A program made the position numbers and the translations under genes. 64,000 nucleotides of DNA from Escherichia coli. GTDB lineage: Bacteria; Pseudomonadota; Gammaproteobacteria; Enterobacterales; Enterobacteriaceae. Below the pieces are notes generated by a model. The model had not been told where the DNA came from. It was given only the letters and a program-made list of their open reading frames with translations, and searched no databases. Position 1 is the stretch's first letter. Each line of letters begins with the position of its first letter. Shown here piece after piece: positions 35,863 to 48,349 of the stretch. The stretch lies in NCBI RefSeq assembly GCF_024502345.1, contig NZ_JALDNN010000001.1. One strand, written 5' to 3'.

Positions 35863-35957
35863 TGGCGGAAGATCACAGGAGTCGAACCTGCCCGGGACCG
35901 CTGGCGGCCCCAACTGGATTTGAAGTCCAGCCGCCTCACCGGAGACGACGATCTTCC
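35863..35957 (-). tRNA. selC: tRNA-Sec (selenocysteine, 95 nt including CCA)
   Basis: The reverse complement reads GGAAGATCGTCGTCTCCGGTGAGGCGGCTGGACTTCAAATCCAGTTGGGGCCGCCAGCGGTCCCGGGCAGGTTCGACTCCTGTGATCTTCCGCCA. Confidence 0.97.
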
Positions 35958-43513: not shown

Positions 43514-44719
43514 ATGTTTCATCTCGATACTTTAGCAACGCTTGTTGCCGCAACGCTGACGTTGCTGCTCGGGCGTAAGTTGGTCCATTCCGTCTCCTTT
43601 TTGAAGAAATACACCATACCGGAACCTGTTGCGGGTGGTTTGTTGGTGGCGCTGGCGCTACTGGTACTGAAAAAAAGCATGGGCTGGGAAGTCAACTTTG
43701 ATATGTCCCTGCGCGATCCGTTAATGCTGGCTTTCTTCGCCACCATTGGCCTGAACGCCAACATTGCCAGTTTGCGTGCCGGTGGGCGTGTGGTTGGCAT
43801 CTTCTTGATTGTGGTTGTTGGTCTGTTGGTGATGCAAAATGCCATTGGCATTGGGATGGCTAGCCTGTTAGGGCTTGATCCGCTGATGGGGCTGTTGGCC
43901 GGTTCTATTACGCTTTCCGGCGGTCACGGTACGGGAGCTGCATGGAGTAAATTGTTCATTGAACGTTATGGCTTCACCAATGCGACGGAAGTGGCGATGG
44001 CCTGTGCAACGTTCGGTTTGGTGCTGGGCGGCTTGATTGGCGGTCCGGTAGCGCGCTATCTGGTGAAACACTCCACCACGCCGAACGGTATTCCGGATGA
44101 CCAGGAAGTCCCGACGGCGTTTGAAAAGCCGGATGTGGGCCGCATGATCACCTCGTTGGTGCTGATTGAAACTATCGCGCTGATTGCTATCTGCCTGACG
44201 GTGGGGAAAATTGTTGCGCAACTTTTGGCTGGCACTGCTTTTGAACTGCCGACCTTCGTCTGTGTACTGTTTGTTGGCGTGATTCTGAGCAACGGTCTGT
44301 CAATAATGGGCTTTTACCGCGTCTTTGAGCGTGCGGTATCCGTGCTGGGTAACGTAAGCTTGTCGTTGTTCCTGGCGATGGCGTTGATGGGGCTGAAACT
44401 GTGGGAGCTGGCTTCGCTGGCGCTGCCGATGCTGGCGATTCTGGTGGTACAGACCATCTTCATGGCGTTGTATGCCATCTTCGTTACCTGGCGCATGATG
44501 GGCAAAAACTACGATGCGGCAGTGCTGGCTGCGGGTCACTGTGGTTTTGGCCTCGGTGCAACGCCAACGGCAATCGCCAACATGCAGGCGATCACTGAAC
44601 GTTTTGGCCCGTCGCACATGGCCTTCCTGGTAGTGCCGATGGTCGGTGCGTTCTTTATTGATATCGTTAACGCGCTGGTGATTAAGCTGTATTTGATGTT
44701 GCCGATTTTTGCGGGTTAA
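43514..44719 (+). CDS. gltS: sodium/glutamate symporter
   Basis: 401-aa polytopic ORF ending KLYLMLPIFAG. Confidence 0.95.
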   Translation: MFHLDTLATLVAATLTLLLGRKLVHSVSFLKKYTIPEPVAGGLLVALALLVLKKSMGWEVNFDMSLRDPLMLAFFATIGLNANIASLRAGGRVVGIFLIVVVGLLVMQNAIGIGMASLLGLDPLMGLLAGSITLSGGHGTGAAWSKLFIERYGFTNATEVAMACATFGLVLGGLIGGPVARYLVKHSTTPNGIPDDQEVPTAFEKPDVGRMITSLVLIETIALIAICLTVGKIVAQLLAGTAFELPTFVCVLFVGVILSNGLSIMGFYRVFERAVSVLGNVSLSLFLAMALMGLKLWELASLALPMLAILVVQTIFMALYAIFVTWRMMGKNYDAAVLAAGHCGFGLGATPTAIANMQAITERFGPSHMAFLVVPMVGAFFIDIVNALVIKLYLMLPIFAG

Positions 44720-44721
44720 AA

Positions 44722-45588
44722 ATGAAAAAGCGTCGGAAGGAACCGGAAACGCTACGTGAACACTGTCGCCACATTTTTGGTGATGAGCCGCCAGTGCTCT
44801 GTGTATGGGAAACGGAATTTGATTACGCAGATGCCGAACTCAAGGCGCTGGCGGCTAAAGAGTGGCAGCAGATCAGCGAATGGGATTTGAGTGCTTACTA
44901 TGTACTCAATCTCGTTTATAACGAACCGATGCAAATAGAGTTGTTTCGCTATCTGTTTCCGCTCTGCCTGGCGCAATGGCATGAAACCGTTTTAGCTGGC
45001 GGTTATGGTGATCACTTCGAAGAATCCTTAATGAAGGCATTGCGTCGGCCCTATCTCTGGCAGGAGATGATGAATGCTTCCCAACGCCAGCAGGTACGGC
45101 AATTTTTACTGGACACCGCGTTGCAGCGTATGGATAACGAGCGTGGTTTCAATAACGTTCTTTGCTGGCTGGCGGTGTTCAATACTCTGGGTGGGGCCGC
45201 GCCGTTAATTCGTTCTCTCTGGTCGCGCTGGTGGGCGCTGGATACGCCGGGAAAAGCGGTGTGTGCTATTCAGTATGCCGCGCATCTAATTTATCCCATA
45301 GAAGCCAATCCGTTATGGTCGCAAGAATGGATAGGCTGGGGGCATCCATTAGGCCATAAAGATGGCTGGTCCTCTGATAATCGCGCTTTTCTTCGCCAAA
45401 TGTTAACACCTGAAATGATTGTGGCTGGCGTACAGGCAGCGGCTGAAATTCTGCGTGGTGAACCGGAAGGCGCAATGGCGGCGCGAATTGCACAGGATGC
45501 GTATGAGGCAATGGATATCCTCACTATCCAGATTGAAGATTTACTGCGTGACTTGTCTCGTGATGAGTCTGGTCATGCGTTGGAGTAA
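44722..45588 (+). CDS. hypothetical Trp-rich protein (288 aa) wedged between gltS and recG
   Basis: ATG lies 3 bp after the gltS stop; the 3-prime end overlaps the convergent recG stop by 16 bp; no recognised motif. Confidence 0.5.
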   Translation: MKKRRKEPETLREHCRHIFGDEPPVLCVWETEFDYADAELKALAAKEWQQISEWDLSAYYVLNLVYNEPMQIELFRYLFPLCLAQWHETVLAGGYGDHFEESLMKALRRPYLWQEMMNASQRQQVRQFLLDTALQRMDNERGFNNVLCWLAVFNTLGGAAPLIRSLWSRWWALDTPGKAVCAIQYAAHLIYPIEANPLWSQEWIGWGHPLGHKDGWSSDNRAFLRQMLTPEMIVAGVQAAAEILRGEPEGAMAARIAQDAYEAMDILTIQIEDLLRDLSRDESGHALE

Positions 45589-47654
45589 CGTTCCGTCTCC
45601 GGCATCCAGCGTTCTATCAAGGCTTTTGCCTGTTGTGGGTAACGTTCGTGAATATGTCGCGCCAGGCGCTGAACTTCCGGGATCATCGCCTGATCGCGCA
45701 GTAAATCCGCCACTTTAAATTCAGCATTACCCGTCTGACGCGTGCCTAACAATTCGCCAGGGCCGCGAATCTCCAGATCTTTTTGCGCAATCACAAAACC
45801 GTCGTTACTGTCGCGCAGCACTTGCAGGCGAATTTGCGCCGTTTTAGAAAGCGGCGTTTTGTAGAGCAGCACGCAGTGAGAAGCCACCGCGCCACGACCT
45901 ACGCGCCCGCGCAGCTGGTGTAACTGCGCCAGACCCAGACGCTCAGGGTTTTCGATAATCATCAGGCTGGCGTTAGGCACATCAACACCGACTTCAATAA
46001 CGGTAGTGGCAACCAGCAGATGTAGCTCACCTTGTTTAAACGACGCCATCACCGCCTGTTTCTCGGCTGGTTTCATCCGCCCGTGTACCAGGCCAACATT
46101 CAATTCTGGTAGCGCCAGTTTCAACTCTTCCCAGGTAGCTTCCGCCGCCTGCGCTTCCAGTAACTCTGACTCTTCAATCAACGTACAAACCCAGTACGCC
46201 TGACGACCTTCAGTTATGCAGGCGTGGCGCACGCGGTCAATGATGTCGGTACGGCGAGTATCAGGAATAGCGACCGTAGTCACTGGCGTGCGGCCTGGCG
46301 GCAGTTCATCAATGACCGAGGTGTCGAGATCGGCATACGCAGTCATCGCCAGCGTGCGGGGGATCGGCGTGGCGGTCATGATCAACTGATGCGGATGGAA
46401 GCCTTGCTGCTGGCCTTTCTCCCACAATGCCAGACGCTGATGCACGCCAAAGCGATGCTGTTCGTCGATAATCACCAGCGCCAGGCCGTTAAACTGCACC
46501 TGTTCCTGGAAGATGGCGTGTGTTCCGACAATCATCTGCACCTGACCGCTGGCGATGGCTTCCTGCTGTGCCAGCCGCGCTTTACCTTTCTGCTTACCGG
46601 CGAGCCAGCCCACTTCGATACCGAGCGGTGCAAACCAGTTACGGAAGTTATTGGCGTGCTGTTCGGCGAGTAATTCGGTTGGTGCCATCAATGCCACCTG
46701 TTTGCCGTGGGCAATCGCACGCAGCGCGGCGAGGGCAGCGACCAGCGTTTTACCGGAACCTACATCGCCCTGTACCAGGCGCATCATCGGCACATTCAGC
46801 GCCATATCGCGCTCGATCTCCGCCACCACGCGAGCCTGAGCGCCCGTTGGCTTGAACGGTAAGGCGGCAAGAAGTTTATTTTTCAGCGTGTCATTGGCGC
46901 TCAGCGGCTGGGCATGGAAACGTTGCGCTCCGGCGCGTAAGGCTAACATGCTGAGGTTATGCGCCAGCAGTTCTTCCAGAATCAGACGACGTTGCGTCGG
47001 ATGCTGCCCGGTTTCCAGATCGCTAAGTTGCAGCGTCGGCGGCGGGCGGTGCAAAGTGCGCAACGCTTCCGGTAGCGTCATCATTCCTTGTGACAGTTCC
47101 GGCGGCAGGAGTTCTTCAATGGCGCAGGTGTCGAGCAGATCCAGCGCCTGGTCGGTTAATTTACGCAGCGTGGCCTGCTTTACGCCTTCGGTTGTTGGAT
47201 AAACCGGCGTGAGCGTTTCCTGCAACTCTGGCGTACTGAGATCGCCCTGCACGCGGTATTCCGGGTGGATCATCTCCGCACCATATTTACCGCGCTTTGC
47301 TTCTCCATAGGCCAGCACGCGGCGGCCCGTCGCCAGGCTATTTTTCATTGCCGCGTTGAAGTTGAAAAAGCGCATGGTGAGAATGCCGGAACCGTCGCTG
47401 ATCTGGCAGGTCATCATCCGCCGACCGCCGAAGGAGATATTGCAGTTCAGCACTTCGCCTTCCACCGTGGCATAAACGCCCGGTAGTAGTTCTCCGATGG
47501 GGTAGAGATGGGTGCGATCTTCGTAGCGCAGGGGAAGGTGTAACAGTAGATCCTGCACGGTATGCAGGTTGATTTTCGCCAGTTTGTTACTAAGTGCTGC
47601 GCCAACGCCCGTTAGGGAACTGAGTGGGACAGCATCTAACAGGCGACCTTTCAT
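45573..47654 (-). CDS. recG: ATP-dependent DNA helicase RecG
   Basis: Start trimmed to MKGRLLDAVPL, giving 693 aa; helicase motifs GDVGSGKT and DEQHRFG. Confidence 0.95.
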   Translation of the reverse strand: MKGRLLDAVPLSSLTGVGAALSNKLAKINLHTVQDLLLHLPLRYEDRTHLYPIGELLPGVYATVEGEVLNCNISFGGRRMMTCQISDGSGILTMRFFNFNAAMKNSLATGRRVLAYGEAKRGKYGAEMIHPEYRVQGDLSTPELQETLTPVYPTTEGVKQATLRKLTDQALDLLDTCAIEELLPPELSQGMMTLPEALRTLHRPPPTLQLSDLETGQHPTQRRLILEELLAHNLSMLALRAGAQRFHAQPLSANDTLKNKLLAALPFKPTGAQARVVAEIERDMALNVPMMRLVQGDVGSGKTLVAALAALRAIAHGKQVALMAPTELLAEQHANNFRNWFAPLGIEVGWLAGKQKGKARLAQQEAIASGQVQMIVGTHAIFQEQVQFNGLALVIIDEQHRFGVHQRLALWEKGQQQGFHPHQLIMTATPIPRTLAMTAYADLDTSVIDELPPGRTPVTTVAIPDTRRTDIIDRVRHACITEGRQAYWVCTLIEESELLEAQAAEATWEELKLALPELNVGLVHGRMKPAEKQAVMASFKQGELHLLVATTVIEVGVDVPNASLMIIENPERLGLAQLHQLRGRVGRGAVASHCVLLYKTPLSKTAQIRLQVLRDSNDGFVIAQKDLEIRGPGELLGTRQTGNAEFKVADLLRDQAMIPEVQRLARHIHERYPQQAKALIERWMPETERYSNA

Positions 47655-47659
47655 GGCAC

Positions 47660-48349
47660 TTACTCTGCAGCCTGCATAGTAGCCCACCAGTCGGCATCAG
47701 CTTCGATCTCGCCTTGCTGATTGACGTGGGGATAAGGCAGGCCTTTGCGTTTTGCGACTTTCGCCAGCACCGGATAGCCGCCTTCAAACAACAGGCGTTG
47801 TTGCTCTGCTTCCGGCAACATGCTGTTTTCACGCAGGTACATGCCCGCATTTTGCCGCTGGCGCTGGGCTTCGTAAAGAATGAGGGCTGAGGCAACGGAA
47901 ACATTCAGCGATTGCACCATGCCAATCATCGGAATGATGATGTCCCGATCCGCCAGGGCCAACGCTTCCTCAGTGATGCCCGTTTTCTCCTGACCCATCA
48001 AAATGCAGGTCGGGCGAGTGTAATCAATTTCGCGAAAATCGACAGCGTTATCAGAAAGATGGGTTGCCAGAATTTGCATGCCCTGGCCTTTGAGATGAGC
48101 GACGGCATCGCCAATGGTGCGGTGCGTTTTCACCTGCACCCAACTGTTGCTACCCGCCGCCGCAGAGGCCATGGTACGCATGCGGCTACCAGGCCAGACG
48201 GCGTGAACTTCATGTACGCCAACGGCATCTGCGGTACGAATAATCGCAGAAACGTTATGAGGTTTGTGGACCTGCTCCATGCAGACGGTCAGATCAGGCT
48301 GCCGCCTGGCGAGCATTTCGCAGATGCGTGCATAACGTGTTGGGTTCAT
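47660..48349 (-). CDS. trmH: tRNA (Gm18) 2-prime-O-methyltransferase
   Basis: 229-aa SpoU-family methyltransferase directly downstream of spoT. Confidence 0.95.
   Translation of the reverse strand: MNPTRYARICEMLARRQPDLTVCMEQVHKPHNVSAIIRTADAVGVHEVHAVWPGSRMRTMASAAAGSNSWVQVKTHRTIGDAVAHLKGQGMQILATHLSDNAVDFREIDYTRPTCILMGQEKTGITEEALALADRDIIIPMIGMVQSLNVSVASALILYEAQRQRQNAGMYLRENSMLPEAEQQRLLFEGGYPVLAKVAKRKGLPYPHVNQQGEIEADADWWATMQAAE

What the first reader, a model, noticed from the sequence alone, without database searches (positions are those of the whole stretch)
44722..45588. 288-aa ORF packed between gltS and recG
This long, unrecognised ORF starts 3 bp after the gltS stop, with a weak GGG ribosome-binding site inside the gltS 3-prime end, and overlaps the convergent recG stop by 16 bp. 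As I recall the K-12 map, recG and gltS are separated by only about 200 bp with no gene between them, so this may be strain-variable. The tight coupling suggests co-transcription with gltS.
Basis: partly seen in the sequence, partly recalled or inferred. Interest (0 to 1): 0.5.

Follow-up and report, generated by a model that had tools for sequence, protein, structure and literature searches.

The report
Strain-variable unknown-function gene after gltS
The ORF is a real, conserved gene that is probably transcribed with gltS; about a third of E. coli strains (BL21, O157:H7) carry it and K-12 does not, databases already list it as a hypothetical protein, and its function is still unknown.

Summary
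A 288-aa ORF lies at 44722..45588 (+). It starts 3 bp after the gltS stop and overlaps the convergent recG end by 16 bp.

It is a real gene. It is present, nearly always full length and at least 99% identical, in 1917 of 5426 complete E. coli genomes. It is always chromosomal and always sits between gltS and recG, and PGAP calls it "hypothetical protein". It corresponds to ECs_4528 in O157:H7 Sakai, ECB_03510 in REL606 and "Ybl159" in UniProt. K-12 has an unrelated 168-bp REP-like spacer at this site, and B2 strains have a 33-bp hairpin.

Homologues at 48-72% identity occupy the same position next to recG in Salmonella and three other enterobacterial genera. Comparison with Salmonella gives dN/dS of about 0.06. 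Published RNA-seq shows ECB_03510 regulated together with gltS.

The protein is soluble and acidic. The AlphaFold2 model is all alpha-helical and confident (pLDDT 88.6). The family has at least 444 clusters at 50% identity but matches nothing in Pfam, NCBIfam, PADLOC, PHROGs or the PDB, and it has no conserved gene neighbour.

Function is unknown. My best guess is a non-catalytic binding protein. The gene is already annotated, so the finding is of modest interest.

The parts
44722..45588 (+). Protein-coding gene of 288 aa plus stop. It corresponds to Ybl159, ECs_4528 and ECB_03510, and to WP_038341613.1 at 100% identity. The product is a soluble, acidic, all-alpha protein of unknown function.
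   Evidence: The ORF is shown. It is annotated as a CDS in 1900+ RefSeq E. coli genomes. Homologues and their alignment are. dN/dS against Salmonella is 0.06. The AlphaFold2 model has pLDDT 88.6 and is all helical. The protein has pI 5.05 and no transmembrane segment.
44711..44724 (+). gltS-ORF junction: a weak GGG Shine-Dalgarno-like element (44713-44715), the gltS stop TAA (44717-44719), a 2-nt spacer and the ATG (44722-44724). This is a probable site of translational coupling.
   Evidence: The sequence is. Equally tight junctions occur in Salmonella and in locus L006, whereas homologues that lack an upstream gltS carry a strong GGGAGG Shine-Dalgarno sequence. gltS and ECB_03510 are co-regulated in RNA-seq.
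43514..44719 (+). gltS, the sodium/glutamate symporter (401 aa). It is the upstream cistron of the probable two-gene operon.
   Evidence: The protein is identical to K-12 GltS.
45573..47654 (-). recG, an ATP-dependent DNA helicase of 693 aa by the RefSeq start. It is convergent with the ORF and is the last gene of the spoT-trmH-recG block.
   Evidence: The mechanical ORF list extends it to a GTG at 47687.
45573..45588 (.). The 16-bp overlap between the 3' ends of the ORF and recG. No intergenic terminator is present here.
   Evidence: No terminator-like site lies between the two genes, and folding shows no GC hairpin followed by a U run. The same 16-bp overlap occurs in Intestinirhabdus alba.

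Best explanation
This is a genuine accessory protein-coding gene, not a chance ORF. In E. coli and Salmonella it is the second cistron of a gltS operon. It is transcribed from the gltS promoter and is probably translated by ribosomes that terminate at the gltS stop and re-initiate 3 bp later. It encodes a soluble, acidic 33-kDa protein built entirely of alpha-helices, with an alpha-solenoid-like fold. The protein belongs to a sparsely distributed, standalone bacterial family with no described function. The gene has occupied the 3' flank of recG since before the enterobacterial genera diverged, and it evolves several times faster than its neighbours. It has been lost in the K-12 and B2 lineages of E. 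coli, where a hairpin terminator, with or without a REP-like insert, fills the gap. Steps that are shown: the ORF exists, it is conserved, it is under purifying selection, its position is syntenic, its presence varies between strains, and its RNA level follows that of gltS. Steps that are inferred: translational coupling; ancestral presence followed by loss; and, with low confidence (about 0.3), that the protein acts as a non-catalytic binding or scaffold protein rather than an enzyme. The last inference rests on two points. No typical catalytic residue (Asp, Glu, His, Lys, Arg, Ser or Cys) is invariant across the family. The only structural neighbours are helical-repeat scaffolds.
Against: No direct evidence of translation (ribosome profiling or proteomics) was found. 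The Shine-Dalgarno element is weak. GC3 is lower than in the neighbouring genes (0.505 against 0.64 and 0.63), and synonymous divergence from Salmonella is higher than for gltS and recG (pS 0.74 against 0.56-0.59). Both could reflect exchange of alleles between lineages rather than strictly vertical descent. 'Ancestral, then lost' rests on parsimony only. An apparent remnant of the ORF start in the short spacer was not above chance. The 'binding protein' guess is an argument from absence: no catalytic motif, no partner and no ligand have been identified.
Confidence: 0.8

Rival explanations
1. The protein is a cytoplasmic accessory or regulatory partner of the GltS sodium/glutamate symporter, made in fixed proportion with it through translational coupling.
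For: The stop-start junction with gltS is tight and conserved in E. coli, Salmonella and locus L006, although the proteins are only 48-72% identical. RNA levels follow gltS.
Against: Homologues in Intestinirhabdus alba, Enterobacter sp. kpr-6 and Superficieibacter sit beside recG with no gltS upstream and carry their own strong Shine-Dalgarno sequence. In Leminorella the gene follows gapA. None of about 25 more distant loci has a Glt_symporter neighbour. K-12 and B2 strains encode an identical or near-identical GltS without it.
Confidence: 0.08
2. The protein is an orphan immunity-type or inhibitor protein. It would neutralise a toxin or effector by binding it, and it would be kept or lost according to exposure.
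For: Presence and absence vary between strains. The protein sequence evolves fast compared with its neighbours. The family is patchily distributed across phyla as a standalone gene. The protein is all helical with no conserved catalytic residues.
Against: No toxin, Rhs, CDI or T6SS gene lies next to any member examined, and there are no arrays of immunity genes. No immunity family in Pfam matches any of 71 members, and there is no PADLOC hit. The chromosomal position has been stable across genera, which is unusual for immunity cassettes. dN/dS is low.
Confidence: 0.1
3. The gene is a recent horizontally acquired insertion, a small islet, into an ancestrally short gltS-recG spacer, rather than an ancestral gene that was lost.
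For: GC3 is lower than in the flanking genes. Synonymous divergence from Salmonella exceeds that of the flanking genes. The representative genomes of other Escherichia species were not hit in the species-level scan.
Against: The insertion point is the same in at least five enterobacterial genera, with identities as low as 48%. Overall G+C is typical. There are no direct or inverted repeats, no integrase and no tRNA at the borders. The gene is absent from phage and viral collections and from true plasmids.
Confidence: 0.1
4. The ORF is a spurious open frame in a non-coding spacer.
For: The ribosome-binding site is weak, the protein matches no known domain, and the ORF overlaps recG.
Against: There are 444 homologous clusters. 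Homologues align over the full length down to about 23% identity. dN/dS is far below 1, and the fold prediction is confident.
Confidence: 0.01

Closest known systems
Ybl159 / ECs_4528 (E. coli O157:H7 Sakai) / ECB_03510 (E. coli B REL606) / WP_000747329.1 (BL21)
   Same: This is the same gene. It is 99.5-100% identical in DNA, has the same flanks and is annotated 'hypothetical protein'.
   Different: Nothing of substance differs. The window allele is identical to WP_038341613.1 of strain FDAARGOS_943.
Salmonella enterica 'putative cytoplasmic protein', 282-283 aa, probably STM3745 of LT2
   Same: It is 69-72% identical over the full length and sits between gltS and recG with the same tight junction to gltS. 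The 852-bp gene length equals that reported for STM3745.
   Different: It ends before recG, so there is no overlap. The link to the STM3745 locus tag rests on length, annotation wording and gene numbering. It was not checked against the LT2 sequence.
HEAT/ARM/MIF4G-type alpha-solenoid scaffolds (for example MMS19, Pds5, importins, Rtt103 CID)
DUF1822 (Pfam PF08852), an uncharacterised family
   Same: One AlphaFold-database protein labelled 'DUF1822 family protein' superposes with TM 0.80 at 20% identity.
   Different: None of 71 family members matches the DUF1822 profile, even at E of 0.1 or less. DUF1822 itself has no known function, so the link explains nothing.

Membership tests
Ybl159 / STM3745-like uncharacterised protein family | Full-length sequence homology of about 280-310 aa as a single domain | tested here: met
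   Homologues range from 72% to 37% identity at 94-100% coverage. The profile search found 444 clusters.
Ybl159 / STM3745-like uncharacterised protein family | Conserved motifs: ExxFD near the N-terminus, LQP[DE]LFxYLFPxCLxxW, WxxWW...GxA and W...N..FL | tested here: met
   All are present in the window protein: W29, E30, F33, D34; residues 71-86; W167, W170, W171, G177, A179; W216, N220.
Ybl159 / STM3745-like uncharacterised protein family | In Enterobacteriaceae, a position convergent with the 3' end of recG | tested here: met
HEAT/ARM repeat proteins | A match to the HEAT or ARM repeat sequence profiles | tested here: not met
   No Pfam hit for the protein or for any of 71 relatives.
HEAT/ARM repeat proteins | An alpha-solenoid fold that superposes on solved repeat proteins | tested here: inconclusive
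DUF1822 (PF08852) | A match to the family profile | tested here: not met
   One search found no member matching. The only link is one structural neighbour carrying that label.
Polymorphic-toxin immunity proteins | The gene lies immediately downstream of, or clustered with, a toxin-domain gene or other immunity genes | tested here: not met
   No such neighbour appears in about 30 loci from diverse taxa, and no neighbour family is conserved across them.
Polymorphic-toxin immunity proteins | Binds and neutralises a cognate toxin | not testable with these tools
   This needs interaction or competition assays.
Known anti-phage defence systems (PADLOC) | A match to a defence-system protein model | tested here: not met
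   No hits for the protein or for 10 diverse relatives.
Mobile genetic element or genomic islet | Flanking repeats, an integrase or transposase, atypical composition, or copies on phages or plasmids | tested here: not met
   There are no flanking repeats. G+C is 0.507 against 0.514 for the window. There are no phage or viral hits. The three 'plasmid' hits are chromosomal fragments that include recG.
gltS operon (co-transcription with gltS) | Same strand, no intervening terminator or promoter, and RNA levels that change together | tested here: met
   The spacer is 2 nt. No convincing terminator lies at the junction; one weak terminator-like pattern lies inside gltS at 44633-44649, and the number of such patterns in the region is no greater than in shuffled sequence. 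Published RNA-seq shows co-regulation. A transcript spanning the junction was not shown directly.

The most novel reading that the evidence does not exclude
Ybl159 could be the founding E. coli member of an undescribed protein family with a new helical fold variant. The family has at least 444 clusters at 50% identity across Proteobacteria, Planctomycetes and other phyla. It might have a specific cellular role that no existing profile library captures. One possibility is a binding or inhibitor protein involved in inter-strain conflict. Another is a role in nucleic-acid or stress metabolism, suggested by its fixed position at the end of the spoT-trmH-recG block and by RNA-repair genes next to two planctomycete members. 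If so, its presence in BL21 and O157:H7 but not in K-12 would produce a phenotype that has so far gone unnoticed.
Probability: 0.15. Interest if true: 0.5.

Novelty: already known. Interest (0 to 1): 0.25.

Why it matters
The gene is one of the differences between K-12 and the other main laboratory and pathogenic lineages (BL21/REL606 and O157:H7). Its family has no entry in Pfam, NCBIfam, PHROGs, PADLOC or the PDB, even though its predicted structure is confident. That makes it an easy target for a first functional study, because BL21 offers a natural genetic background with the gene and K-12 one without it. It also creates a terminator-less convergent overlap with recG, so it may affect read-through transcription into the spoT-recG operon in the strains that carry it. 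Beyond this, it is an ordinary accessory hypothetical gene. Nothing found here suggests an unusual mechanism.

Tried and rejected
1. Profile libraries. Pfam, NCBIfam, PADLOC and PHROGs were searched with the protein. All 71 aligned relatives were scanned against Pfam, and 10 diverse relatives against PADLOC, PHROGs and NCBIfam. Nothing matched.

2. PDB by sequence. The single protein and the family profile were both searched. Nothing matched.

4. Genomic context. About 30 loci from genomes and metagenomes were compared by all-against-all BLAST of their neighbours. No neighbour family recurs except between closely related contigs. The RlaP, RNA-ligase and Pnkp neighbours in L026 and L036 count as a single observation from related organisms.

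5. Mobile-element reading. This was rejected: there are no repeats, no phage or plasmid copies, and composition is normal.

6. Remnant of the ORF in the short spacers. The B2 spacer begins CCGATGAAGCGGCGG, which resembles the ORF start ATGAAAAAGCGTCGG. However, 671 of 5000 shuffles scored as well, so this was not used as evidence.

7. RNA elements. Rfam found nothing relevant, and there is no intrinsic terminator between the convergent genes.

8. Literature. There are no papers on 'Ybl159' or on the WP, ECs or Z identifiers. The exceptions are the ECB_03510 RNA-seq remark and the STM3745 pseudogene note.

9. Second word-indexed homology search, run with the wider alignment. It added no domain fusions or names.

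Full report
**Observation.** The window holds an ATG-initiated ORF of 288 codons at 44722..45588 on the + strand. gltS occupies 43514..44719 and ends with TAA at 44717-44719. Two A residues separate that stop from the ATG. The only purine-rich element upstream of the ATG is GGG at 44713-44715. recG runs on the - strand and ends at 45573, so the last 16 bp of the ORF overlap the last 16 bp of recG.

**Comparison with K-12 and other E. coli.** In MG1655, recG and gltS are convergent and separated by 168 bp with no annotated gene. A BLAST comparison of the two regions shows 97-98% identity that stops exactly at the gltS stop and resumes at the recG stop. The 168 bp have no similarity to the ORF; they consist of GC-rich hairpins and REP-like sequence.

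Megablast of the ORF against 5426 complete E. coli genomes finds it in 1917. Of these, 1911 have it at full length and 1871 at 99% identity or more. There is one copy per genome in nearly all cases (median 1, at most 2). It is never on a plasmid, always lies under a PGAP 'hypothetical protein' CDS, and always abuts recG. Carriers include BL21 (WP_000747329.1), O157:H7 Sakai (ECs_4528) and a strain identical to the window, FDAARGOS_943 (WP_038341613.1).

The reciprocal search with the K-12 junction shows 1873 genomes with the 168-bp allele. The rest, for example Nissle 1917 and UPEC strains, have a 33-bp spacer that is a single hairpin, GCGGCGG-TCTTCTCA-CCGCCGC. The K-12 spacer is the same hairpin split by an insertion. 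The site therefore has three alleles, and the ORF allele is in about 35% of sequenced strains.

**Is it a gene?** Yes. Full-length homologues occur in Salmonella enterica (72% and 69% identity), Superficieibacter (67% and 64%), Intestinirhabdus alba (56%), Enterobacter sp. kpr-6 (49%), Leminorella (45%), Cupriavidus (44%), a Zoogloeaceae MAG (37%) and Planctomycetes (about 33%). A 17-sequence alignment has 42 invariant columns, including VWExxFD, LFRYLFPxCLAxW and WxxWW...GxA. A profile search of 1.84 billion representative proteins finds 444 clusters at E of 0.001 or less and 325 at 1e-10 or less. Almost all are 280-310 aa single-domain proteins.

Nei-Gojobori estimates against the syntenic Salmonella gene give dN = 0.213 with saturated synonymous sites, so dN/dS is about 0.06. 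Between the window and BL21, dN/dS is 0.28, based on very few changes. The same E. coli-Salmonella comparison for gltS and recG gives dN of about 0.04 and dS of about 1.0-1.1. The ORF is therefore under purifying selection but changes about five times faster at the protein level than its neighbours. Across six enterobacterial genomes, RecG identity stays at 92-95% while the ORF ranges from 47% to 72%. The two are correlated (Spearman 0.69).

**Expression.** I found no ribosome-profiling or proteomic evidence. One RNA-seq study of E. coli B lineages reports that dinI, gltS and ECB_03510 were the three most strongly down-regulated genes in one evolved clone. [quoted passage not shown]

The junction architecture points the same way. 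Where gltS precedes the gene, the stop and start are 1-2 nt apart (E. coli, Salmonella) or overlap as TAATG (locus L006), and the Shine-Dalgarno element is weak. Where gltS is absent (Enterobacter sp. kpr-6, Superficieibacter), the gene has a canonical GGGAGG. In Leminorella it follows the gapA terminator hairpin. Co-transcription with gltS is thus well supported. Translational coupling is a reasonable inference from this pattern.

**Origin.** The gene lies convergent to recG in at least five enterobacterial genera, with or without gltS on its other side. Its G+C content (0.507) equals that of the window (0.514). It has no flanking repeats, no nearby integrase and no tRNA at its borders. It has no copies in phage or viral collections, and the only 'plasmid' hits are chromosomal fragments that include recG.

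The most economical reading is an old resident of this locus that was deleted in the K-12 and B2 lineages. Two observations weaken that reading. GC3 is lower than in the neighbours (0.505 against about 0.63), and synonymous divergence from Salmonella is higher. These leave room for allele exchange between lineages. A tempting 'remnant' of the ORF start in the short spacer did not beat shuffled controls. A premature stop in STM3745 in one S. Typhimurium lineage suggests the gene is dispensable. STM3745 is an 852-bp 'cytoplasmic protein' gene, the same length as the Salmonella homologue in L060.

**What the protein is.** It is 33.3 kDa with pI 5.05, contains 13 Trp residues and has no hydrophobic segment long enough to span a membrane. 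AlphaFold2 run on the 17-sequence alignment gives a confident model (mean pLDDT 88.6, pTM 0.88) of about 15 helices and no strands.

Pfam, NCBIfam, PADLOC, PHROGs and PDB sequence searches are empty, both for this protein and for diverse relatives. Across 71 diverse members the only invariant residue is P80. The near-invariant residues are mostly aromatic or structural (Y60, Q71, L83, W86, W170, G177, A179, W216, N220), with no conserved catalytic-type residue.

**Genomic context outside Enterobacteriaceae.** About 25 further loci from a species-level genome scan and a metagenome scan were compared. No neighbouring gene family recurs except between closely related contigs. Neighbours include an IS3 transposase in Cupriavidus, a clan-AA aspartic protease in Zoogloeaceae and acpP-fabF housekeeping genes in one contig. 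Two related planctomycete-like contigs have RlaP nucleotidyltransferases with an RNA ligase or Pnkp. The family is therefore a standalone gene, and context gives no functional lead.

**Mechanism, committed.** With high confidence (about 0.8-0.9), this is an expressed, dispensable accessory gene that forms the distal cistron of the gltS operon in the strains that carry it. With low confidence (about 0.3), the product is a non-catalytic helical-repeat protein that works by binding another macromolecule.

The rivals are as follows:
- A GltS accessory subunit (0.08). This is contradicted by homologues that have no gltS neighbour and by K-12 GltS, which is identical in sequence and exists without the gene.
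- An orphan immunity or inhibitor protein (0.10). This is compatible with the patchy distribution and fast evolution, but no toxin neighbour and no immunity-family match support it.
- A recent horizontal insertion (0.10).
- A spurious ORF (0.01 or less).

**Novelty and score.** The gene is already in the databases under several names, and at least one paper mentions it as a gene of unknown function. It is not new as a feature. What is unknown is its function, and the family has no entry in any profile library searched. That is common for accessory genes. A specialist would not be surprised, and no open question depends on it. Interest is 0.25.

Noticed in passing
window 44613-44712 (last ~100 nt of gltS): There is a patch of 10 synonymous differences per 100 nt against K-12 and 9 against BL21, whereas the rest of gltS has 0-3 per 100 nt and GltS is identical at the protein level. 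This looks like a short recombination tract. It is not tied to presence of the ORF, because BL21 also carries the ORF.
   Followed up: partly
protein collection, cluster containing window:44722-45585: The 90%-identity cluster that holds this protein has 9280 members. Its representative is a 401-aa GltS, and the cluster mixes GltS and Ybl159 sequences. This is probably a clustering artefact chained through fused gltS-ORF gene calls. It explains why the E. coli cluster did not appear as a hit.
   Followed up: no
L026 6001-9736 and L036 7437-11449: In two related planctomycete-like contigs the family member lies next to RlaP-type nucleotidyltransferases, together with an RNA ligase (L026) or a polynucleotide kinase-phosphatase Pnkp (L036). 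These are RNA-repair genes. Because the contigs are related, this is one observation only.
   Followed up: partly
L019 5995-6897 (Leminorella grimontii): The homologue sits between gapA and a yeaD-like gene, directly after the gapA terminator hairpin. This is another case of the gene lodged in a housekeeping intergenic region.
   Followed up: no
window 45573-45588 and K-12/Nissle spacers (L003 3293-3460; L024 451-483): The ORF allele has no terminator between the convergent gltS-ORF and spoT-trmH-recG transcription units, whereas the ORF-less alleles have a GC hairpin that could terminate in both directions. Strains carrying the ORF may therefore have antisense read-through into recG and into the ORF.
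   Followed up: partly
window 35863-35957 (-): This is the tRNA-Sec gene (selC), a classic island-integration site; the LEE island sits there in O157:H7 Sakai. The window sequence on the far side of it (coordinates 1-35800) was not examined.
   Followed up: no
window 47655-47687 (-): The mechanical ORF list extends recG to a GTG at 47687 (704 aa). RefSeq and all orthologues start at the ATG at 47654 (693 aa, MKGRLLDAVP...).
   Followed up: yes
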